Shown here: piece by piece, positions 1 to 49,749 of the stretch
How positions within the stretch are numbered: position 1 is the first letter of the stretch
How the letters are laid out: the number at the start of each line of letters is the position of its first letter
Origin: a virus
Virus record (IMG/VR): IMGVR_UViG_3300045988_176129
Coordinates: 24,700 to 88,699 of that record
DNA length: 64,000 bases
Reading direction: 5' to 3' (one strand)
Program-made: the position numbers and the translations under genes
The notes under the pieces: model-generated
What the model was told of the DNA's origin: nothing
Databases searched by the model: none
Seen by the model: the letters and a program-made list of their open reading frames with translations, nothing else

Positions 1-234
1 CATCTTCTAGTTCAAACAGCTTATCATTCATAGAGTCCAACTCGCCATCACTATCACAAGCCGCATTAAACAAATCTCCTAATCCAACTTTATAAGCTAA
101 CCTTATATTCTTTTTTAAATACTTAATATAGTATTTTATAAATGCGGCAGCTGCCTCTTTATTCTCACCCTTATCTAAATCACAAAATGCCATTTCTAAC
201 AAATCATCTATATCTCTTTTAACTGTTGTAATCA

Positions 235-8244: not shown

Positions 8245-8557
8245 GCATTATTTATTATATTCAGGCAATAAAGGAAATATAGATGCTCTTTTTGGTGCAT
8301 TAAAGATAGAATTTAAAAATGATATAAAAAGAATAACAAATGAAAATTTTAAGAAAGAAATATATATTGAACAAAATGGGATAATGTATATTTATACTTG
8401 GTATAGGGATTTGCGAGGACGACATTTTGAGGTTGGAGAGTTTGAAGCGGTTTATGTAGATGAATGTTTCTATAATACTAAATATTATTTTAATTTAATC
8501 AATATGAATGATTGGGTTACTCCAGAATCAATTTGTTCAGATATAAGATTTTTTTAG
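8234..8557 (+). CDS. hypothetical protein
   Basis: Intact ORF. Confidence 0.5.
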   Translation: MKTKHYLLYSGNKGNIDALFGALKIEFKNDIKRITNENFKKEIYIEQNGIMYIYTWYRDLRGRHFEVGEFEAVYVDECFYNTKYYFNLINMNDWVTPESICSDIRFF

Positions 8558-8565
8558 GAGAGATT

Positions 8566-8979
8566 ATGTATAAACAAATAATAATAGCAAGGAAAGATTT
8601 GAATATGAGTCCGGGAAAGCTTGCCGCTCAAGTATCACATGGATCAATGGTATTTCTTAGCTGGTTTATTAGAAATAATGCTGATTTAGATGGACATATA
8701 GATGCTTGGTTTGATGAAGGAATTCTTCACAATTGGATTGAGGGTGAGTTTACAAAATGTGTTCTTCAAGCTAAAAATAAGAACCAGTTGCTAAAAGCTA
8801 AAACTATGGCGGAAGGATTAGGGATGACAGAAGGAAAAGATTTTTGGTTGATAAAAGATAATTGCCACACAGAATTAGAACCGGAAGAAGATGGTAGGAC
8901 TCTTACTTGCATAGGTTTCCGCCCAATGGATAGTGAGATAATAGATAAAATAGGTAAAAAATATCATTTATATGTATAA
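8566..8979 (+). CDS. peptidyl-tRNA hydrolase, PTH2 family
   Basis: KQIIIARKDLNMSPGKLAAQVSHGS matches the PTH2 core (VVRTDLxMGKGKIAAQCSHA); start chosen at MYKQ with RBS aggaga. Confidence 0.7.
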   Translation: MYKQIIIARKDLNMSPGKLAAQVSHGSMVFLSWFIRNNADLDGHIDAWFDEGILHNWIEGEFTKCVLQAKNKNQLLKAKTMAEGLGMTEGKDFWLIKDNCHTELEPEEDGRTLTCIGFRPMDSEIIDKIGKKYHLYV

Positions 8980-11743: not shown

Positions 11744-12030
11744 TGATAAAATATGATGAATGGCAGGATGGCGCAGGTATGTGGCATTGTGGAAATACAT
11801 CTGATCTTACACATGGAAGTAATGATTGGTGGCTTCCTGCTAGATATTTAGGCATTGCCCCATATGAATTTGCTAAACTTTTGGTTGAAAAATTTCATGT
11901 AGATAGAATAAAATACCTTATAAATGGCAATAATATTGGAGTATTAACATATTCTTGGAAAAAGCAATCGGATATGCGAGTTTTTAAAAATTGGTTAAAT
12001 AAAGAGATAAGGACTAGGAAAATATCATAA
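11743..12030 (+). CDS. hypothetical protein
   Basis: Start/stop overlap with the upstream gene. Confidence 0.5.
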   Translation: MIKYDEWQDGAGMWHCGNTSDLTHGSNDWWLPARYLGIAPYEFAKLLVEKFHVDRIKYLINGNNIGVLTYSWKKQSDMRVFKNWLNKEIRTRKIS

Positions 12031-12082
12031 AGATATTTTCCTATTGTTTTATAATAAAATTTTATTATTCTGAGGTGATAAA

Positions 12083-13713: not shown

Positions 13714-13843
13714 TTTTCATAAATTAAATATAATAATTGATATTATAAAAAATTTATGATATAATAATTATATAAGATGAAGGAATGTGAAACATTCCCA
13801 TGTAAGTTCCCTTTGCGGTTTTCTTCTTTATCTTATATATTAT

Positions 13844-13981
13844 TCCCTAGTAGCTCAGTTGGTAGAGTGTCTGACTGTGCGGAAATAGTATAAGCAGTAC
13901 GTCTGTAGCCCAGAAGATTTGAGTTCAAATCTCAATTTCCGATTAATCAGAATGTCGTAGGTTCGAGTCCTACCTGGGGAG
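13844..13981 (+). tRNA. tRNA-like gene with GTG-type anticodon loop interrupted by a ~65-72-nt insertion
   Basis: Canonical acceptor, D-arm and T-arm; the anticodon-stem halves (tctga / tcaga) are separated by 72 nt. Confidence 0.4.
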
Positions 13982-14120
13982 CTAGGTTAAGTTATTCATA
14001 GACTCGCCGATTGCAGAAAGTAGGAATGTTGTTATTTAAAATGGTAACACAGTCGCCGAAAGGACTGTCTGTCAGACTCCTTGACGGAGAATAGGAGTAG
14101 AGTTATAAGTGAAGATGATT

Positions 14121-14145
14121 GGAGGTTCGAATCCTTCCCCGCCGA
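14121..14145 (+). other. orphan canonical T-arm plus 3' acceptor-like element (unresolved tRNA or tRNA-like RNA end)
   Basis: ggagg-ttcgaat-ccttc followed by cccgccg; no 5' partner found within 100 nt. Confidence 0.3.
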
Positions 14146-14312
14146 AAAGTGGTGGGCGCGAAAGGAGTGCTAATCGAAGAACTTATTTTAGTTGAAGTAC
14201 AAAGTGTGTTGCAGCATATGGAGTAAATACTAAAGTAACTCGACAAGATTTACTGCAATAAGTCTTGATAGCTTAGTCATCTAATTGGAAGGATGCCACG
14301 GTATGTGGTCAC

Positions 14313-14337
14313 AGAGGTTCGATTCCTCTCTAAGATT
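14313..14337 (+). other. orphan canonical T-arm element (unresolved tRNA-like)
   Basis: agagg-ttcgatt-cctct followed by ctaagat; a possible 5' partner attttag lies 145 nt upstream. Confidence 0.3.
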
Positions 14338-14548
14338 TAGGCTCGGACTTTAACCCCGAGGGTAATAATTAGGGTTATTGCGTACAGAGAGATTGCCGAA
14401 CATTACGTATCCTCACTCTACCTTAACGAGATAAGGTGTAAAGATGTCTATGAAATGTCGTTTGAAAGAGATTTAGAGAGTTCACGAAGTAGCTCACCTT
14501 GTATCTTCAAGTTATGCTTCTTGGGGATATAGACAAAAAGCATTTTAA

Positions 14549-15055: not shown

Positions 15056-15135
15056 TTAAATGTATTTATAATGGTAACTGGCAAACTTATTTGACTTAGA
15101 ATCAAATATTTGAGAGTTTAAATTTTTTAGACGCA

Positions 15136-15634: not shown

Positions 15635-16291
15635 TTGAATACTTTAGTCAAAATATAATGTAATAACTCAGTGCAGAATGGTGAATTCAGCCATGCTGAG
15701 AAATCTTGAGAAACTCCAGTAACAACCGAAGCAAGGATACTTGCGGATATTGCTGTTTTCTTAATTGTGAAATTAAGAAAAGAAAGGATAGGCTCCAACG
15801 AGTAGAGAGATTGTGCTGTGGGGATTACGGTTTATAGCGTAGGACGTGTCTCGGTGATGGAATAGAGGCGAAGGTTAATAGCTTTCGCTGAATCAAAGTG
15901 AGGGTTTAGCTGGTGACTGTATCAAACCTTTGAAATGCCAATAAATCATTTTGTCGTGATGTTTTAGAAATAGAACTATAAGAGATGCAGATGACCTGAA
16001 AGTAGCCTAAGACAAAATTAAAGAAGAACAATTTTAATTCAAGTTGTATGTAAATGGAAATTACATAAAAGATTGAAAATATTGCTGAAAGTAATGGTGA
16101 AATCTAGGGGTAGTCATTCCCCTCTAAGTTAAGTGAGTTTCGACTCATGGGGTAAAGAAGTACAGACTAGCTATCTGGTTGCTATTTATAGCATTTAACT
16201 CAGCCTTTATCTCCTTAGTTGCGTAATAATAAACAAGTAATACATAGTAAGAGGAAGCTCTATTATAATATATTTTGACTAAAGTATTCAA
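15635..16291 (+). ncRNA. ~650-nt non-coding element bounded by perfect 23-bp inverted repeats (candidate large structured RNA, or MITE-like insertion)
   Basis: ttgaatactttagtcaaaatata at 15635-15657 is the exact reverse complement of 16269-16291; no ORF over 60 aa inside; higher GC than flanks; sits between a promoter and tRNA-Glu. Confidence 0.45.
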
Positions 16292-18169: not shown

Positions 18170-18240
18170 GCGGGTGTAGCTTAATGGGTAGAGCACTTCA
18201 ATGTTAATGGAGGGATGAGGTTCGAATCCTCCGCCCGATC
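18170..18240 (+). tRNA. tRNA-Asn(GTT)-like with irregular acceptor stem
   Basis: D gctt-aatgggta-gagc, anticodon stem cttca/tggag, loop atgttaa, T (t)gagg-ttcgaat-cctcc; the acceptor pairs only with a bulge. Confidence 0.45.
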
Positions 18241-18772: not shown

Positions 18773-18857
18773 GCGCGTGTCGCCTAGTGGCTAGGGCAAC
18801 GGACTTTTAATCCGTCGATGTTCAGCATCATCGCAGGTTCAAATCCTGTCACGCGCA
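18773..18857 (+). tRNA. tRNA-Lys(TTT) with an unusual 17-nt variable arm
   Basis: Acceptor gcgcgtg/cacgcgc, D gcct/gggc, anticodon stem acgga/tccgt, loop cttttaa; extra hairpin gatg-ttcagca-catc before T-arm gcagg-ttcaaat-cctgt. Confidence 0.6.
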
Positions 18858-19578: not shown

Positions 19579-19652
19579 ATCTCGGTAAAGATAATTGGAA
19601 ATCGCTTGGTCTCCAAAACCATAGTACCTGGGTTCGATTCCTAGCTGAGATG
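19579..19652 (+). tRNA. tRNA-Trp(CCA)
   Basis: Acceptor atctcgg/ctgagat, anticodon loop ctccaaa, T ctggg-ttcgatt-cctag; weak D-stem. Confidence 0.55.
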
Positions 19653-19917
19653 TTTTCTTCCTTTGTAATTCATAGAGAAGATATGATGATCGCCTAACTG
19701 GATAAAGGTTATAATACCAGTACATAAAGGGTAATCCAAGTAACCGAAAATGGGAGATAACCTGTGTGACGTTTATTGTTTACGTCTTAAAATAATATGA
19801 CGAGTTTTATAGTCTTTTAGCGATGACAAGCAAAGAGTGCGGCAGCTGACTTTTATAGCAGTTAGCCTAGAGTGGTGCGTTGGCGGCTTGAGCCAATAGT
19901 CAAAATCAAGCATATAT

Positions 19918-20085: not shown

Positions 20086-20087
20086 CT

Positions 20088-20160
20088 GTGACATTAGTTC
20101 AGTTGGTAGAACATTGGATTGTGGTTCCAAATGTCGTGAGTTCAAGTCTCACATGTCACC
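20088..20160 (+). tRNA. tRNA-His(GTG) without an encoded G-1
   Basis: Acceptor gtgacat/atgtcac, D gttc-agttggta-gaac, loop ttgtggt, T gtgag-ttcaagt-ctcac, discriminator C; base -1 is T. Confidence 0.75.
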
Positions 20161-20272: not shown

Positions 20273-21238
20273 ATGAGAAAAATAACAGAAACACATACAG
20301 GAAAGATTGTAACTGATACAGATTTAACTCTTGAATATTTATATGTTGGTGATTATGGAAAAGAGAATAATATTAAGGCATCATTTCTTGGATATGATAA
20401 AAGAATTGATAAGGTAGAGCATAAACCTGTAGATATTACTGATAAGCTTGTAGTGACTGTATCTTCACAAAAAGGTTGTCCTATGAATTGCAATTTCTGT
20501 GACTGTCCTAAACTTGGATTTAAAGGTAATGCAACTTTGCCAGAGTTGATTACGGAAATTATGTCAGGTGTTGCTTTATCTGGAATTAAGCATGGACAAA
20601 GATTGAATGTACATTATGCAAGAATGGGTGAACCAACATTTAATCCAAATGTTATTACATCGGCAAAGTTTATTGCGCAAATGTTAATGAGTGAAAATTC
20701 AGATGTAACTTTTGATACATACCATCCTGTAGTGTCTACTATGATGCCAAAATCAAATAAAAACCTTAAAGAGTTTTTACATAAATGGATAACAACTGGA
20801 TTTGTATATGGCGGAGAGGATGGTTTTGGATTACAGTTTTCTATAAATACTCTTAATGAGAATGATAGAAATGAAATGTTCAGAAACAGGTCTTTATCAT
20901 TGCAGGAAATTAGTAATATTATCAAAGAACTTCCTTATCCGAAGAAGAGAAAATATACATTAAATTTTGCGGTTACTTCCAAGAGTAATCTTAATGTAGA
21001 CCTTATGAACAAATATTTTGATAAGAAGAAATGCATTGTTAAAATGACGCCAATTCATGAGACTGTTGAAGCTGTTGATGAAGGATATGAAATTGTGCAT
21101 GATTTTGATGTATATGAGCAGTTTGAGCAGCCACTTGTAAATGATGGATGGGATGTAATTGTCTTTGTTCCCTCAAAAGAGGAAGATGAGGACAGAATTA
21201 CATGTGGAAATTCGTTAATTGCATTAGGAAACAAGTAA
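20273..21238 (+). CDS. radical SAM enzyme, RlmN/Cfr-like (candidate rRNA/tRNA adenosine C2 methyltransferase)
   Basis: VSSQKGCPMNCNFCDC has the CxxxCxxC cluster inside a vSSQxGC...C.FC context typical of RlmN; a C-terminal ITCGNS may hold the second catalytic Cys. Confidence 0.55.
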   Translation: MRKITETHTGKIVTDTDLTLEYLYVGDYGKENNIKASFLGYDKRIDKVEHKPVDITDKLVVTVSSQKGCPMNCNFCDCPKLGFKGNATLPELITEIMSGVALSGIKHGQRLNVHYARMGEPTFNPNVITSAKFIAQMLMSENSDVTFDTYHPVVSTMMPKSNKNLKEFLHKWITTGFVYGGEDGFGLQFSINTLNENDRNEMFRNRSLSLQEISNIIKELPYPKKRKYTLNFAVTSKSNLNVDLMNKYFDKKKCIVKMTPIHETVEAVDEGYEIVHDFDVYEQFEQPLVNDGWDVIVFVPSKEEDEDRITCGNSLIALGNK

Positions 21239-47527: not shown

Positions 47528-48303
47528 TGTCAATATTTATTACTGGGGATACCCATGGTGATTTCCGCAGATTCTCAAGTCAGTATTTCTCAGAAGGAAA
47601 AAATCTAAATAGAAATGATTATGTTATTATATGTGGAGATTTTGGCGGAATTTGGGATATAGATAAACACAATCTTTCTGAAAAATATTGGCTTGATTGG
47701 TTAAATGCAAAACCTTGGACTACTCTTTTTGTAGATGGAAACCATGAAAATTTTACTCGTTTAAATAGTTTCCCGCAAGTAGAATTTTGCGGAGGTCTTA
47801 CTCATCAGATACGTCCGCATATTTATCATTTAATGCGAGGAGAAATTTTTGAAATAGATAATTGTACTATTCTTGCTTTTGGCGGTGCGCCATCACATGA
47901 CATCCAGGATGGTATAATTGATCCTTCAATAGATAAGGATTGGAAGGATACAGCTAGGTTATGGAGAAAGCAACATAAACTCTTTAGAATTAAAGGTATC
48001 TCTTGGTGGGAAGAAGAGGTGCCTACTGCCGCAGATTTTGACAATGCAAAGAAAAATTTAGCTTTATATAATAATAAAGTTGATTTTATTGTTACACACG
48101 AAGCACCCGCTTCTGCTTTTTATGAAATGGCTTTATGGGGGAAAGTGCCACCATCACAATATTTGCCAAGCGAAACGTCAAAACAAATTCAAGATTTAAT
48201 ATCTAATGTGGAATATAAACAGCATTATTTTGGTCATCATCATCTTGATAAAAGATTTAATTTTTCTGAATGTTTATATACATCAATTCAGCAAATACAT
48301 TAA
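47527..48303 (+). CDS. calcineurin-like metallophosphoesterase
   Basis: GDTHGD ... GDFGG ... GNHE ... H motifs. Confidence 0.7.
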   Translation: MSIFITGDTHGDFRRFSSQYFSEGKNLNRNDYVIICGDFGGIWDIDKHNLSEKYWLDWLNAKPWTTLFVDGNHENFTRLNSFPQVEFCGGLTHQIRPHIYHLMRGEIFEIDNCTILAFGGAPSHDIQDGIIDPSIDKDWKDTARLWRKQHKLFRIKGISWWEEEVPTAADFDNAKKNLALYNNKVDFIVTHEAPASAFYEMALWGKVPPSQYLPSETSKQIQDLISNVEYKQHYFGHHHLDKRFNFSECLYTSIQQIH

Positions 48304-48307
48304 TTAA

Positions 48308-48340
48308 AAGAGGATTTAATAATCCTCTTTTTGTTTTTTA
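48308..48340 (+). terminator. Rho-independent terminator
   Basis: agaggatt-taat-aatcctct followed by ttttgtttttt. Confidence 0.6.
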
Positions 48341-48392
48341 TAAAAAAATATGATATAATATTTATAGAAAGTTATGAAAGAGGTGTATAAAA

Positions 48393-48695
48393 ATGAGTAT
48401 AAGCATTAGTGAGATGTACTGCACTGAATGTGGGAAAAGAGGAATAGATATTCCTAGAAAAGTAGGAAAAGAACGAGAAGCTGGACACTTAAAATCATTA
48501 TATTGTATAAACTGTAAAAAAATAACTAATCATGCAGAGGTTCGTCCTTTTGGAAAGTATAATAAAGAGGATTTTTTAATTGAATTTGAAAACGGAAATT
48601 TTAAAAACGGAGAAAGAATTGTAAAGTCATATAAACAATTTATATCTTCAATTGTAAATAACACTGAGAAAATAGAAAAGCAAAAGGAGGAATAA
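48393..48695 (+). CDS. zinc-ribbon protein
   Basis: CTECGK ... CINCKK. Confidence 0.5.
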   Translation: MSISISEMYCTECGKRGIDIPRKVGKEREAGHLKSLYCINCKKITNHAEVRPFGKYNKEDFLIEFENGNFKNGERIVKSYKQFISSIVNNTEKIEKQKEE

Positions 48696-48698
48696 AAA

Positions 48699-49193
48699 AT
48701 GGCAAATATTATTATGATGTGCGGTATTCCTGGAAGTGGAAAGTCTACTTATGTAGAAAAACATAGAGGAGAACATGACCTTTATATATCAAGAGATTTA
48801 ATAAGATTTTCAATGCTTGAAGAAGGACAGGAATATTTTGGAAAAGAAAAGCTTGTTTTTGATACTTTTGTTAAGACAATAAATCAGGCTTTAAAAGTTA
48901 ATAGTATAGAAAATATATGGGTAGATGCAACTCATATCAATCCGCCATCAAGATATAAGATTCTTAGAAGAATATCCAAGCAGTATAAGTTCCTTAAAAT
49001 TATAGTTATGGATATTCCTCTCTCAGTATGTATAGATAGAAATAATTATAGAGAGGGGCGGGCAAGGGTTCCTGAGTCCGCAATTAATGGCATGTATAAA
49101 AATTTTAGAATGCCTACTTTTGAAGAAGGTTATAATGAAATCATAACAGTAGATATGTATGGTAATGAAATAAGGAGGAATAGAAATGTCTAA
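48699..49193 (+). CDS. polynucleotide 5'-kinase (T4 Pnk kinase-domain-like, P-loop)
   Basis: MMCGIPGSGKST Walker A; RD..R, DATHINPPSR and R..RVPE.AINGMYK parallel the T4 PNK kinase domain. Confidence 0.7.
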   Translation: MANIIMMCGIPGSGKSTYVEKHRGEHDLYISRDLIRFSMLEEGQEYFGKEKLVFDTFVKTINQALKVNSIENIWVDATHINPPSRYKILRRISKQYKFLKIIVMDIPLSVCIDRNNYREGRARVPESAINGMYKNFRMPTFEEGYNEIITVDMYGNEIRRNRNV

Positions 49194-49749
49194 TATTTGG
49201 ATAACTAGCGATACTCATCTGGGGCATGATCGAGATTTTATCTGGAAGCCTCGAGGTTTTAATTCAGTTGATGAAATGAATAATGAAATAGTTAAGAGAT
49301 GGAATGAAAAGGTTCAGCCAGAAGATATAGTATATCATTTGGGGGATGTTATGCTTGGAGATAATGAAGTTGGAGAAAATCTTCTTAAGCAGCTTAATGG
49401 AAATATAAGGTTTATAATTGGTAATCATGATACCAATAGTAGACTAAGAATATATGAAAAGTATGGTGAAATTCTTGGCTATGCAACAGTAATAAAGTAT
49501 AAAAAGAAAATGTTATATCTTAGTCATTATCCAACTTTAACAGGAAATTTTGATGATGTAATAAAAGGCGGAACTCTAAACTTAAACTTATGCGGTCATT
49601 TACATACTTTTAATAAATTTTTAGATATGGATAAAGGAGCTATTTATCATTGTGAAATGGATGCACATAACTGTTATCCCATTTTACTTGATGATGTAAT
49701 AACAGATATAAAAAATTATTGTATAAATGAAAGAGGTAATAAAGAATGA
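49186..49749 (+). CDS. metallophosphoesterase (candidate 2',3'-phosphatase of the RNA-repair module)
   Basis: SDTHLGHD ... LGDV ... GNHD ... GHLH. Confidence 0.7.
   Translation: MSNIWITSDTHLGHDRDFIWKPRGFNSVDEMNNEIVKRWNEKVQPEDIVYHLGDVMLGDNEVGENLLKQLNGNIRFIIGNHDTNSRLRIYEKYGEILGYATVIKYKKKMLYLSHYPTLTGNFDDVIKGGTLNLNLCGHLHTFNKFLDMDKGAIYHCEMDAHNCYPILLDDVITDIKNYCINERGNKE

What the first reader, a model, noticed from the sequence alone, without database searches (positions are those of the whole stretch)
13844..13981. tRNA gene with a ~70-nt insertion in the anticodon loop (intron-like)
The acceptor (tccctag/ctgggga), the D-arm (gctc-agttggta-gagt) and the T-arm (gtagg-ttcgagt-cctac) are canonical and correctly spaced. 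The two halves of the anticodon stem (tctga ... tcaga) are 72 nt apart. The 5' half carries cTGTGc (anticodon GTG). The insert contains a T-arm-like hairpin (ttgag-ttcaaat-ctcaa) but does not fold as a complete nested tRNA. Group I introns are much longer, so this may be a non-canonical short intervening sequence, a permuted or split arrangement, or a decayed duplicate of tRNA-His.
Basis: seen in the sequence. Interest (0 to 1): 0.55.

Follow-up and report, generated by a model that had tools for sequence, protein, structure and literature searches.

The report
tRNA-shaped intron inside phage tRNA-Asn
A phage tRNA-Asn gene is interrupted in the middle of its anticodon by a 65-nt insert that is itself a miniature tRNA, and its borders suggest it is cut out by the cell's ordinary tRNA end-trimming enzymes and the halves re-joined by an RNA ligase, a splicing route not yet described.

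Summary
Window 13844-13981 (+) is a full tRNA (Rfam 54 bits) with an insert in the anticodon loop.

The host is tRNA-Asn(GUU), not tRNA-His. Removing 13879-13943 joins CUGU+UAA into a 73-nt tRNA-Asn that is 69/73 identical to an uninterrupted phage tRNA-Asn.

The 65-nt insert is a nested mini-tRNA. Alone it scores 37.6 bits on the Rfam tRNA model, from G1 to U73.

Eight intron-bearing tRNA-Asn genes from other phage contigs keep both structures by compensatory changes. The exons pair at 100% of positions, so this is not a pseudogene.

A wider scan gave 22 distinct genes whose nested elements sit in tRNA Asn, Lys, Gln, Pro, Ile or Thr. In nearly all, removing exactly "nested +1..73, plus CCA when encoded" restores a canonical 7-nt loop. 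The nested element carries CCA only in phages whose ordinary tRNA genes encode CCA.

Best model, inferred and not shown: RNase P cuts 5' of the nested tRNA and RNase Z cuts 3' of it. That leaves 3'-OH/5'-P ends, which an ATP RNA ligase seals. The window encodes an Rnl5-type ligase within an RNA-repair cluster.

The closest precedent is the "enigmatic" tRNA introns of Lak megaphages (2019), for which no mechanism was proposed.

The parts
13737..13765 (+). sigma-70-like promoter candidate (TTGATA-17-TATAAT with TG extension), about 79 nt upstream of the gene
   Evidence: Consensus scan, 11 of 12 matches. This is only a consensus match; 9 such sites were found against 6.4 expected in the region.
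13844..13878 (+). Exon 1 of tRNA-Asn(GUU): acceptor 5' strand, D arm, anticodon-stem 5' strand and loop positions 32-35 (CUGU)
   Evidence: Rfam tRNA 54 bits; ARAGORN -i; spliced product folds as a cloverleaf; exon covariation among 8 homologues.
13879..13943 (+). 65-nt intron, a nested mini-tRNA. Acceptor-like stem 13879-13885 / 13936-13942 (G1·A72 mismatch plus 6 bp); U8 A9; D-like hairpin 13888-13900; short anticodon-like hairpin 13902-13914 (4 bp, 5-nt loop); T arm 13919-13935 (TTGAG-TTCAAAT-CTCAA); 'discriminator' U 13943; no CCA.
   Evidence: Rfam tRNA model on the intron alone: 37.6 bits, E 3e-7, model positions 1-71. Covariation in 6 homologous introns found through their exons only: 87.5% of cells paired, 12 of 20 pairs changed on both sides, 0 of 500 shuffles as high. 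CM R1 scores it 78 bits.
13944..13981 (+). Exon 2 of tRNA-Asn(GUU): loop positions 36-38 (UAA), anticodon-stem 3' strand, variable loop ATGTC, T arm, acceptor 3' strand, discriminator G73 (13981); no encoded CCA
   Evidence: blastn of this part hits annotated tRNA-Asn genes of Bacillus phage G and Lactococcus phages at 87-92% identity.
45984..47219 (+). ATP-dependent RNA ligase, Rnl5 type (N-terminal OB fold plus nucleotidyltransferase domain). Candidate enzyme for sealing the 3'-OH/5'-P exon ends. The link to the intron is inferred.
   Evidence: Pfam PF21189 + PF09414; PHROG 968 'RNA ligase' 5.8e-54; best solved relative is Naegleria gruberi RNA ligase 5cot, 5.5e-29.
47527..49749 (+). Possible end-healing genes beside the ligase: metallophosphoesterase 47527-48303, P-loop kinase 48699-49193 (weakly like the Pnkp kinase domain), Metallophos_2 49186-49749. 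They would be needed only if the intron is removed by a nuclease that leaves 2',3'-cyclic-P/5'-OH ends.

Best explanation
Window 13844-13981 is a functional phage tRNA-Asn(GUU) gene. Its anticodon is split between U35 and U36 by a 65-nt intron (13879-13943) that has the shape of a small tRNA. The intron keeps a 7-position acceptor-like stem stacked on a 5-bp T stem with a canonical T loop, plus U8 and one discriminator-like U. Its D and anticodon arms are degenerate.

The intron borders are exactly the mature ends of that nested tRNA. I therefore propose that the host's own tRNA end-maturation enzymes remove it. RNase P cuts 5' of nested G1, leaving ...CUGU-3'OH on exon 1. RNase Z cuts just after nested U73 (the element is CCA-less and followed by UAA), leaving 5'-P-UAA... 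on exon 2.

The two exons stay held together by the outer tRNA's acceptor and anticodon stems. An ATP-dependent 3'-OH/5'-P RNA ligase then seals the nick in the anticodon loop. The obvious candidate is the Rnl5-type ligase encoded at 45984-47219. The product is a 73-nt tRNA-Asn.

The same intron family sits in the anticodons of Asn, Lys, Gln, Pro, Ile and Thr tRNAs of other uncultured phages, so it probably behaves as a mobile, selfish 'tRNA-shaped intron'.

Shown here: the gene, the nested cloverleaf, its conservation by covariation, selection on the exons, the border rule and the CCA correlation. Inferred: which enzymes cut and seal, and the mobility.
For: 1. Rfam tRNA matches both the whole gene (54 bits) and the intron alone (37.6 bits, exactly 13879-13943).
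2. Removing exactly that span gives a canonical loop CUGUUAA and a 73-nt tRNA-Asn whose minimum-energy fold is a cloverleaf. It is 69/73 identical to an uninterrupted phage tRNA-Asn, L363.
3. Six homologous introns found through exon sequence alone keep the cloverleaf by covariation: 12 of 20 pairs changed on both sides, 0 of 500 shuffles as high.
4. The exons of 8 intron-bearing Asn genes pair at 168 of 168 cells, with 13 of 21 pairs compensatory. U1-A72, G73, U33, GUU and A37 are invariant. The tRNA is therefore used, and the intron must come out.
5. 22 distinct nested-intron genes in six tRNA types were parsed. Removing nested +1..73 (plus CCA when encoded) restores a canonical 7-nt loop in 18, and in 2 more once the anticodon stem is re-registered by hand. 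The base at -1 is U in 20 of 22, and U8 is present in 20 of 22.
6. The nested element is followed by CCA only where the phage's ordinary tRNA genes encode CCA (for example 21/23, 16/16, 15/15, 7/7). It is CCA-less where they do not (window 0/21; others 0/8, 1/18, 0/8, 0/5). The intron's 3' border thus follows the genome's normal tRNA 3'-end style.
7. Only the parts that RNase P and RNase Z need are kept. Some relatives have lost the anticodon-like arm altogether (53-54-nt elements in L200, L243, L182, L283).
8. RNase Z cuts directly 3' of the discriminator and leaves a 3'-OH, and cytidines at 74-75 inhibit the B. subtilis enzyme (PMC7479834). Here position 74 onward is UAA.
9. The window encodes an ATP RNA ligase of the 3'-OH/5'-P type.
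Against: - There is no transcript or biochemical evidence for any step.
- Two CCA-less cases, L164 tRNA-Lys and the L091 group, need the 3' cut one nucleotide further downstream, or else give an 8-nt loop.
- In the CCA-encoding subtype the 3' cut must fall right after CCA. B. subtilis-type RNase Z does not do this, although T. maritima RNase Z does.
- Lak-phage introns carry an extra hairpin-plus-linker of about 25 nt 5' of their tRNA-like module. RNase P alone would not remove it.
- The window's ligase is of the Rnl5 type. From my own knowledge, not from a tool result, the characterised members of that type seal nicks in duplex RNA rather than anticodon-loop nicks.
- Co-occurrence of nested introns with RNA ligases could not be tested.
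- The window holds a second, poorer tRNA(GUU) at 18170-18240, so the phage may not depend on this gene.
Confidence: 0.55

Rival explanations
1. This is a true intron in a functional tRNA-Asn, but a dedicated, still unknown endonuclease (phage or host) excises it by recognising the tRNA-like fold or the junction. That enzyme leaves 2',3'-cyclic-P/5'-OH ends. The kinase and phosphoesterases heal them and the Rnl seals them, or RtcB joins them directly.
For: The window has a kinase and two metallophosphoesterases next to the ligase, which the RNase P/Z route would not need. L164 and L091 are off by one nucleotide. Lak-type introns have a 5' module that RNase P/Z cannot explain. The CCA subtype needs a cut after CCA.
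Against: The borders coincide with the tRNA +1 and 73/76 positions in about 20 genes. The presence or absence of CCA tracks the genome's ordinary tRNA genes. Both are expected if the normal tRNA end-processing enzymes do the cutting, and neither is explained by a dedicated nuclease. No candidate nuclease appeared among about 50 window ORFs scanned. The repair cluster is adequately explained as defence against host anticodon nucleases (an inference from my own knowledge of phage RNA-repair systems).
Confidence: 0.25
2. The RNA is processed but never re-joined. The gene is a vehicle for making the mini tRNA-like RNA and/or tRNA-Asn halves, for instance as decoys for host tRNA-targeting defences.
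For: A free-standing mini tRNA-like gene of similar build lies 290 nt downstream at 14270-14337. The nested fold is conserved by covariation.
Against: The split anticodon loop is invariant and reconstitutes CUGUUAA exactly. All Asn identity positions and every helix of the outer tRNA are maintained by compensatory change. That is unnecessary if the halves are never joined.
Confidence: 0.08
3. This is a dead gene: a tRNA-derived element inserted into tRNA-Asn and inactivated it (pseudogene or chimera).
For: There is no direct evidence of splicing. A second tRNA(GUU) exists at 18170-18240.
Against: The exons of 8 diverged intron-bearing genes pair at 100% of positions, with 13 compensatory pairs. 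L087 and L092 each carry two such genes. The same precise border rule holds in six tRNA types.
Confidence: 0.07
4. This is a self-splicing or self-cleaving ribozyme intron (group I-like, hammerhead and so on).
For: Bacterial tRNA introns known so far are group I introns in the anticodon loop (established knowledge).
Against: The intron is 65 nt. The intron's last base is U (or A in the other register), not the terminal G that group I introns carry at their 3' end. No ribozyme or group I family appears in Rfam even at E <= 10. The only Rfam family matching the intron is tRNA.
Confidence: 0.02

Closest known systems
'Enigmatic' tRNA introns of Lak megaphages (Devoto et al. 2019, Nat Microbiol, PMC6784885)
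   Same: Both are short introns in the anticodon loop of phage tRNA genes. The authors noted that one (tRNA-Thr UGU) 'itself may encode a tRNA'. Intron-less alleles exist. No Rfam class other than tRNA matches. Reading their Table S6, all four listed introns end in an acceptor-plus-T-arm module (my reading).
   Different: Lak introns are 79-114 nt. They lie about one base 3' of the anticodon and carry an extra 5' hairpin plus A-rich linker before the tRNA-like part, with 1-3 nt after its discriminator. The window's intron is the bare nested tRNA, sits inside the anticodon (35/36), and its borders equal the nested tRNA's ends. No mechanism, border rule, CCA correlation or family-wide distribution was reported there.
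Group I introns in bacterial and cyanobacterial tRNA anticodon loops
   Same: A bacterial-type tRNA gene is interrupted within the anticodon loop, and the exon ends in U at the 5' splice site.
   Different: Group I introns are at least about 200 nt, self-splice, and have a conserved catalytic core and a terminal G. None of these features is present.
Archaeal/eukaryal tRNA introns cut at a bulge-helix-bulge motif by the splicing endonuclease and joined by RtcB or Trl1
   Same: These are short protein-spliced tRNA introns. Non-canonical positions occur in Archaea (PMC4090602, abstract only).
   Different: There is no bulge-helix-bulge. The two splice sites face each other across a 2x2 internal loop (U35 G1 / A72 U73) between the anticodon stem and the nested acceptor stem. 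The context is bacterial phage. The predicted ends are 3'-OH/5'-P rather than 2',3'-cyclic-P/5'-OH.
tRNA-like elements excised from larger transcripts by RNase P and RNase Z (mitochondrial tRNA punctuation, MALAT1 mascRNA, synthetic tRNA-gRNA arrays)
   Same: A tRNA-shaped module defines both cleavage sites by its own ends. That is how this intron is proposed to work.
   Different: In those cases the flanking RNAs are not re-ligated. Here the flanks are the two halves of another tRNA and must be joined.
Phage T4 Pnkp/Rnl1 repair of tRNA-Lys cleaved in the anticodon loop by PrrC
   Same: A phage RNA ligase seals a break in a tRNA anticodon loop while the halves are held by the tRNA fold. The window has a ligase, a kinase and phosphoesterases.
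   Different: T4 repairs damage inflicted by a host nuclease. Here the break would be programmed by an intron. The window's ligase is Rnl5-type, not Rnl1.

Membership tests
tRNA (Rfam RF00005), isoacceptor Asn(GUU): the outer gene | Full cloverleaf scoring above the family's gathering score | tested here: met
   54.0 bits against a gathering score of 29, model positions 1-71, despite the insertion.
tRNA (Rfam RF00005), isoacceptor Asn(GUU): the outer gene | After intron removal: a 7-nt loop with U33, anticodon GUU and a purine at 37, plus the Asn-type U1-A72 and G73 | tested here: met
   The loop is CUGUUAA and ARAGORN calls tRNA-Asn(gtt), 73 nt. Bona fide Aeromonas tRNA-Asn genes show the same U1-A72, G73, GACTGTTAATC and ATGTC. 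These positions are invariant in 8 homologues.
   A GUG reading would require a different 65-nt excision (CUGUG|AA). The discriminator is G, not C, and position -1 is T. A normal tRNA-His with C73 exists at 20088-20160.
tRNA-like fold: the intron itself | Acceptor stem contiguous with T stem (12 positions), T loop UUCRANY, U8, discriminator | tested here: met
   Rfam tRNA 37.6 bits on 13879-13943 alone; covariation.
Decoding tRNA: the intron itself | 5-bp anticodon stem with a 7-nt loop; D loop with G18 G19 | tested here: not met
   The stem is 4 bp with a 5-nt loop (UAGCC). The D loop is 5 nt without GG. This arm is 3-6 bp or absent in relatives.
RNase P / RNase Z substrate | Sequence determinants: acceptor/T stack, T loop, U at -1, no C at 74-75 for CCA-less precursors | tested here: met
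   -1 is U and positions 74-76 are UAA. U at -1 in 20 of 22 family members. The determinant rules come from PMC7479834 and from established knowledge of RNase P.
RNase P / RNase Z substrate | Actual cleavage at +1 and after position 73 | not testable with these tools
   This needs enzyme assays or end mapping.
Group I intron | At least about 200 nt with a P3-P9 core; G at the intron's 3' end | tested here: not met
   65 nt; the last base is U; no Rfam group I match at E <= 10.
Bulge-helix-bulge (archaeal-type) intron | Two 3-nt bulges separated by a 4-bp helix that carry the splice sites | tested here: not met
   The predicted fold puts both splice sites in one symmetric 2x2 internal loop. No splicing endonuclease was found among the scanned ORFs, but only part of the genome was seen.
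Lak-megaphage tRNA introns | Phage tRNA gene; intron in the anticodon loop with an embedded tRNA-like module | tested here: met
Lak-megaphage tRNA introns | 5' hairpin plus A-rich linker module; position about 37/38 | tested here: not met
   Exon 1 abuts nested G1 directly and the intron lies between positions 35 and 36. Lak sequences are in Table S6.
Permuted or split tRNA gene | 3' half encoded upstream of the 5' half, or the halves at separate loci | tested here: not met
   The exons are colinear and 65 nt apart.

The most novel reading that the evidence does not exclude
tRNA-shaped introns define a third route of tRNA splicing, used by bacteriophages. The intron mimics a tRNA, so RNase P and RNase Z excise it. 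These enzymes leave 3'-OH/5'-P ends, so a phage Rnl-type ligase can join the exons without healing. The intron is also a mobile element that hops between the anticodons of different tRNAs (Asn, Lys, Gln, Pro, Ile, Thr), possibly by the reverse reaction, in which the ligase joins a mini-tRNA into a cleaved anticodon loop. Functional phage tRNAs would then depend on the phage's own RNA-repair ligase.
Probability: 0.45. Interest if true: 0.9.

Novelty: new variant of a known kind. Interest (0 to 1): 0.8.

Why it matters
1. It offers a concrete, testable mechanism for phage tRNA introns that were published as 'enigmatic' in 2019 and, as far as the searchable literature shows, never followed up.

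2. If correct, it is a new kind of RNA splicing, assembled entirely from housekeeping tRNA-processing enzymes plus a repair ligase. It is also a new kind of mobile intron whose only 'catalytic' feature is its tRNA shape.

3. It gives phage RNA ligases a constitutive role beyond countering anticodon nucleases.

4. It has a practical consequence. Bacterial-mode tRNA finders miss these genes. Here the phage's best tRNA-Asn was invisible to default ARAGORN, so phage tRNA repertoires and codon-usage analyses are incomplete.

Tried and rejected
- **Over-specific exon pattern.** An exact pattern spanning the exons found nothing in IMG/VR.
- **Mistyped pattern.** One scan was wasted on a typing error (checked).
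- **Relatives via the neighbouring radical-SAM gene (L001-L080).** They share only that gene, not the tRNA array. The 'intron' tRNAs ARAGORN called there are AT-rich replacements of the anticodon arm, unrelated to this family. CM R1 finds nothing in them.
- **Genome and metagenome scans.** Most hits were tandem tRNA-Asn genes of Aeromonas, i.e. false positives.
- **Cultured phages (INPHARED).** No record holds this or two related nested-intron genes. Only exon-sized tRNA hits appeared.
- **Ligase co-occurrence.** Relatives of the window's Rnl lie on other contigs than the nested-intron genes. The held flanks of nested-intron loci contain no homologue of the window's repair proteins. The test is uninformative because only 3-20 kb per contig is held.
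- **Splint RNA.** A search for an RNA complementary to the exon junction found matches at chance level.
- **Region 13982-14269.** Its fold is not significant, z -1.5.
- **Ribozymes.** Group I and small self-cleaving ribozyme families give no Rfam hit, a hammerhead core was ruled out by eye, and no bulge-helix-bulge motif is present.
- **Origin of the nested element.** Derivation from tRNA-Gly or from the second tRNA(GUU) is only a weak resemblance.
- **Literature.** Searches for 'nested tRNA', 'tRNA-like intron' and phage tRNA intron + RNase P/Z found nothing relevant except the Lak paper.

Full report
**Observation**

The window is an AT-rich (about 30% GC) phage-like contig with a + strand tRNA array at 13.6-20.2 kb. 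The two halves of the anticodon stem (13870-13874 and 13947-13951) are 72 nt apart.

The Rfam tRNA model matches the whole span at 54.0 bits (gathering score 29), with a 68-nt insertion in the anticodon loop. ARAGORN finds the gene only when introns are allowed, and then reports a 65-nt intron. The 138-nt RNA folds with the outer acceptor, D, T and anticodon stems intact and the insert as a separate branched domain (-40.5 kcal/mol, z -2.6).

**What the outer gene is**

A 65-nt deletion can be placed in four registers. Only CUGU|UAA (or the equivalent CUG|UUAA) gives GUU.

The body is Asn-type: U1-A72, G73, GACUGUUAAUC and variable loop AUGUC, as in the bona fide Aeromonas tRNA-Asn genes picked up by chance. 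The predicted spliced RNA is a 73-nt tRNA-Asn(GUU) whose minimum-energy fold is the cloverleaf. The 3' exon hits annotated tRNA-Asn genes of Bacillus phage G and Lactococcus phages. An uninterrupted tRNA-Asn on a 578-kb IMG/VR contig (L363) is 69/73 identical to the predicted product, colinear across the junction.

A normal tRNA-His lies at 20088-20160.

**What the insert is**

Scanned on its own, 13879-13943 matches the Rfam tRNA model end to end (37.6 bits, E 3e-7). G13879 is position 1 and U13943 is the discriminator. Its parts are:
- acceptor-like stem GCGGAAA/UUUCCGA (G1·A72 mismatch plus 6 bp)
- U8 A9
- a 4-bp D-like hairpin with a 5-nt loop
- a 4-bp 'anticodon' hairpin with a 5-nt loop
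- T arm UUGAG-UUCAAAU-CUCAA, directly abutting the acceptor 3' strand
- a single U, and no CCA.

It cannot decode. It does keep exactly the acceptor/T-arm half of a tRNA.

**Relatives found through the exons only**

A degenerate pattern that specified only tRNA-Asn exon positions and left the intron as N{50,80} was scanned. It recovered intron-bearing tRNA-Asn genes in five loci (four IMG/VR contigs, L081-L084, and one metagenome contig, L089) that all carry an identical sequence. It also recovered them on metagenome contigs L087 and L092, each with two such genes.

Their introns differ greatly in sequence but have the same architecture at the same site. On the six-sequence alignment, 87.5% of cells pair and 12 of 20 pairs change on both sides. 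No shuffle of 500 reaches this, and sliding the partners collapses it.

The exons of eight intron-bearing genes pair at 168 of 168 cells, with 13 of 21 pairs compensatory. U1-A72, G73, U33, GUU, A37 and A38 are invariant. The outer tRNA is therefore under selection as a working tRNA-Asn. That excludes a pseudogene and requires that the intron be removed.

**A wider family**

I parsed the hits for three helices: nested acceptor, outer anticodon stem and outer acceptor.

This gave 22 distinct genes. By the loop left after excision, the outer tRNAs are Asn, Lys(UUU), Gln(UUG), Pro(UGG), Ile(UAU) and Thr(UGU). There are up to three such genes per contig.

L164 is a relative of the window found through the ORF upstream of the tRNA array. 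It carries a nested intron in tRNA-Lys.

In 18 of the 22, deleting 'nested +1 to 73, plus CCA when CCA follows' leaves a canonical 7-nt loop (CUGUUAA, CUUUUAA, CUUUGAC, UUUGGGA, CUUAUAA, UUUGUAA). Two more (L178, L203) do so once the anticodon stem is re-registered by hand. The parser did not use loop length.

The insertion point varies (34/35, 35/36, 36/37) but always lies inside the anticodon. The base before the intron is U in 20 of 22, and U8 is kept in 20 of 22.

A covariance model trained only on the Asn-hosted introns ranks the nested elements of Gln, Lys and Pro tRNAs (40-52 bits) above all but a handful of the ordinary tRNAs in the same 150 kb. Those ordinary tRNAs score at most 34 bits. 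In the window itself, ordinary tRNAs score at most 41 bits. The window's element is 73-78% identical to elements sitting in Gln, Lys and Pro tRNAs, against at most 68% to ordinary tRNAs of the window. This suggests one family that has moved between tRNA genes. The evidence for movement is moderate, because the bait pattern biases the sample.

**The CCA correlation**

The nested element is followed by CCA only in loci whose ordinary tRNA genes also encode CCA:

| Locus | Nested element | Ordinary tRNA genes encoding CCA |
|---|---|---|
| L173 | CCA | 21/23 |
| L217 | CCA | 16/16 |
| L256 | CCA | 15/15 |
| L240 | CCA | 16/17 |
| L267 | CCA | 7/7 |
| L252 | CCA | 7/7 |
| window | no CCA | 0/21 |
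| L200 | no CCA | 0/8 |
| L234 | no CCA | 1/18 |
| L243 | no CCA | 0/8 |
| L164 | no CCA | 0/5 |
| L092 | no CCA | 1/8 |

The 3' border of the intron therefore follows whatever 3'-end style the genome's real tRNAs use. That is what is expected if the same 3'-end machinery defines it.

**Mechanism (inferred)**

RNase P cleaves 5' of a tRNA's +1, leaving a 3'-OH on the leader. RNase Z cleaves directly after the discriminator of CCA-less precursors, leaving a 3'-OH on the tRNA and hence a 5'-phosphate on the trailer. It is inhibited by C74 C75 in B. subtilis, whereas the T. maritima enzyme cuts just after CCA (PMC7479834; the RNase P chemistry is established knowledge).

Applied here, the cuts fall at 13878/13879 and 13943/13944. 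The products are exon 1 ending in CUGU-OH, a free mini-tRNA, and exon 2 starting with pUAA. The exons remain paired through the outer acceptor and anticodon stems. These are the ends that ATP-dependent Rnl ligases join without healing, and RtcB does not join them.

The window encodes such a ligase at 45984-47219: PF09414 plus an N-terminal OB fold, PHROG 'RNA ligase', nearest solved relative Naegleria Rnl5. It sits in a cluster with a Thg1-like protein, a P-loop kinase and two metallophosphoesterases. A sigma-70-like promoter candidate lies 79 nt upstream of the gene.

**Caveats**

- No step is demonstrated.
- L164 and the 50-nt L091-type intron need the 3' cut one base further on, or else give 8-nt loops.
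- The CCA subtype needs an enzyme that cuts after CCA.
- From my own knowledge, not a tool result, the characterised Rnl5 enzymes seal duplex nicks rather than anticodon-loop nicks.
- The healing enzymes next to the ligase would be superfluous for this route, although they are explained by anti-anticodon-nuclease repair.
- Co-occurrence with ligases could not be tested.

I put about 0.85 on 'a spliced intron in a functional tRNA-Asn whose borders are set by its tRNA shape'. I put about 0.55 on the specific RNase P + RNase Z + Rnl route.

**Comparison with what is known**

The only precedent I found is Devoto et al. 2019 (PMC6784885). [quoted passage not shown] They found that one tRNA-Thr intron 'itself may encode a tRNA', and that intron-less alleles exist. 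The abstract calls the introns 'enigmatic'.

Their Table S6 marks three of four introns 'no hit in rfam'. As I read the sequences, all four end in an acceptor-plus-T-arm module preceded by a hairpin and A-rich linker of about 25 nt. The window's intron lacks that 5' module and sits inside the anticodon.

I found no follow-up work, and no paper on nested or tRNA-like introns.

Group I, bulge-helix-bulge and permuted or split arrangements each fail a defining feature (see the membership table).

Functionally, the nearest analogues are tRNA-like modules excised by RNase P/Z (mitochondrial punctuation, mascRNA) combined with T4-style sealing of the anticodon loop.

**Verdict**

The feature is real and is a new variant of a barely characterised kind of phage tRNA intron. 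It belongs to a family that is widespread in uncultured phages. Its border rule and CCA correlation point to a splicing pathway that has not been described.

Noticed in passing
window 15643-16280 (+): A full-length ROOL RNA (Rfam RF03087, 255.9 bits, E 4e-58) sits inside the tRNA array.
   Followed up: no
window 14270-14337 (+): A free-standing mini tRNA-like gene (Rfam tRNA 30.9 bits) with a 4-bp anticodon stem and a 5-nt loop, the same truncated build as the nested intron, lies 290 nt downstream of it. CM R1 scores it only 18 bits.
   Followed up: partly
window 18773-18857 (+): tRNA-Lys(UUU) has a long, class-II-like variable arm (85 nt, Rfam 63 bits), which is unusual for tRNA-Lys.
   Followed up: no
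window 18170-18240 (+): A second tRNA with anticodon GUU has a G1·A72 mismatch, a 4-bp T stem and U73 instead of G73. Its quality and identity as tRNA-Asn are doubtful.
   Followed up: partly
window 19580-19651 (+) and 15062-15135 (+): Weak tRNA matches missed by ARAGORN. The first reads as tRNA-Trp(CCA) (29.9 bits). The second scores 23 bits, below the family's gathering score.
   Followed up: partly
window 44117-44977 (+) and 20087-20160 (+): The window has a Thg1-like tRNA-His guanylyltransferase gene. The phage tRNA-His has T, not G, at position -1 and has C73. G-1 is therefore probably added after transcription.
   Followed up: partly
window 20273-21238 (+): An RlmN/Cfr-like radical-SAM gene follows the tRNA array directly. 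It is 94% identical at the DNA level in L001 and L003, but their flanks are unrelated, so it looks like a mobile cassette.
   Followed up: partly
window 8512-8979 (+): A PTH2-type peptidyl-tRNA hydrolase gene (PF01981, 1e-20) adds another translation-related function to this phage.
   Followed up: no
window 13982-14269 and 14338-14548 (+): About 500 nt with no ORF and higher GC than the surroundings. It includes a T-arm-like GGAGGTTCGAATCCTTC (14123-14139) followed by a CCCGCC/GGTGGG hairpin. There is no Rfam match and the fold is not significant.
   Followed up: partly
window 19694-19820 (+); L164 13532-13656: A conserved non-coding stretch (87% identity over 127 nt) is shared with relative L164, where it directly follows the intron-bearing tRNA-Lys.
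   Followed up: no
L017-L030 (~13720-13860) and L032-L039, L064 (~11900-12050): tRNA-like genes have intact acceptor, D and T arms, but the anticodon region is replaced by 53-68 nt of AT-rich sequence containing TACCTCC (GGAGGTA on the other strand). They are unrelated to the nested-tRNA family.
   Followed up: partly
L092 c1151-1226; L091 1730-1800; L109 c4491-4561; L110; L111: ARAGORN reports tRNAs with 8-nt anticodon loops (four-base 'anticodons' tttg and aatg) next to intron-bearing tRNA-Asn genes.
   Followed up: no
L109 c7009-7174 and c7217-7381: tRNA-Pro (88-nt) and tRNA-Leu (68-nt) introns in a GC-richer contig consist of GC-rich hairpins sharing a CCUAAAGG loop motif. This may be a different intron class.
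   Followed up: no
L215, L171, L233, L259 (around the pattern matches): A tRNA-Pro-like gene is followed about 5 nt later by a conserved ...AATAAGGTTCGAATCCTTGTACTCCGA T-arm-plus-acceptor piece. It may be a tRNA 3'-half duplicate (an att site) or part of a larger tRNA-like RNA.
   Followed up: no
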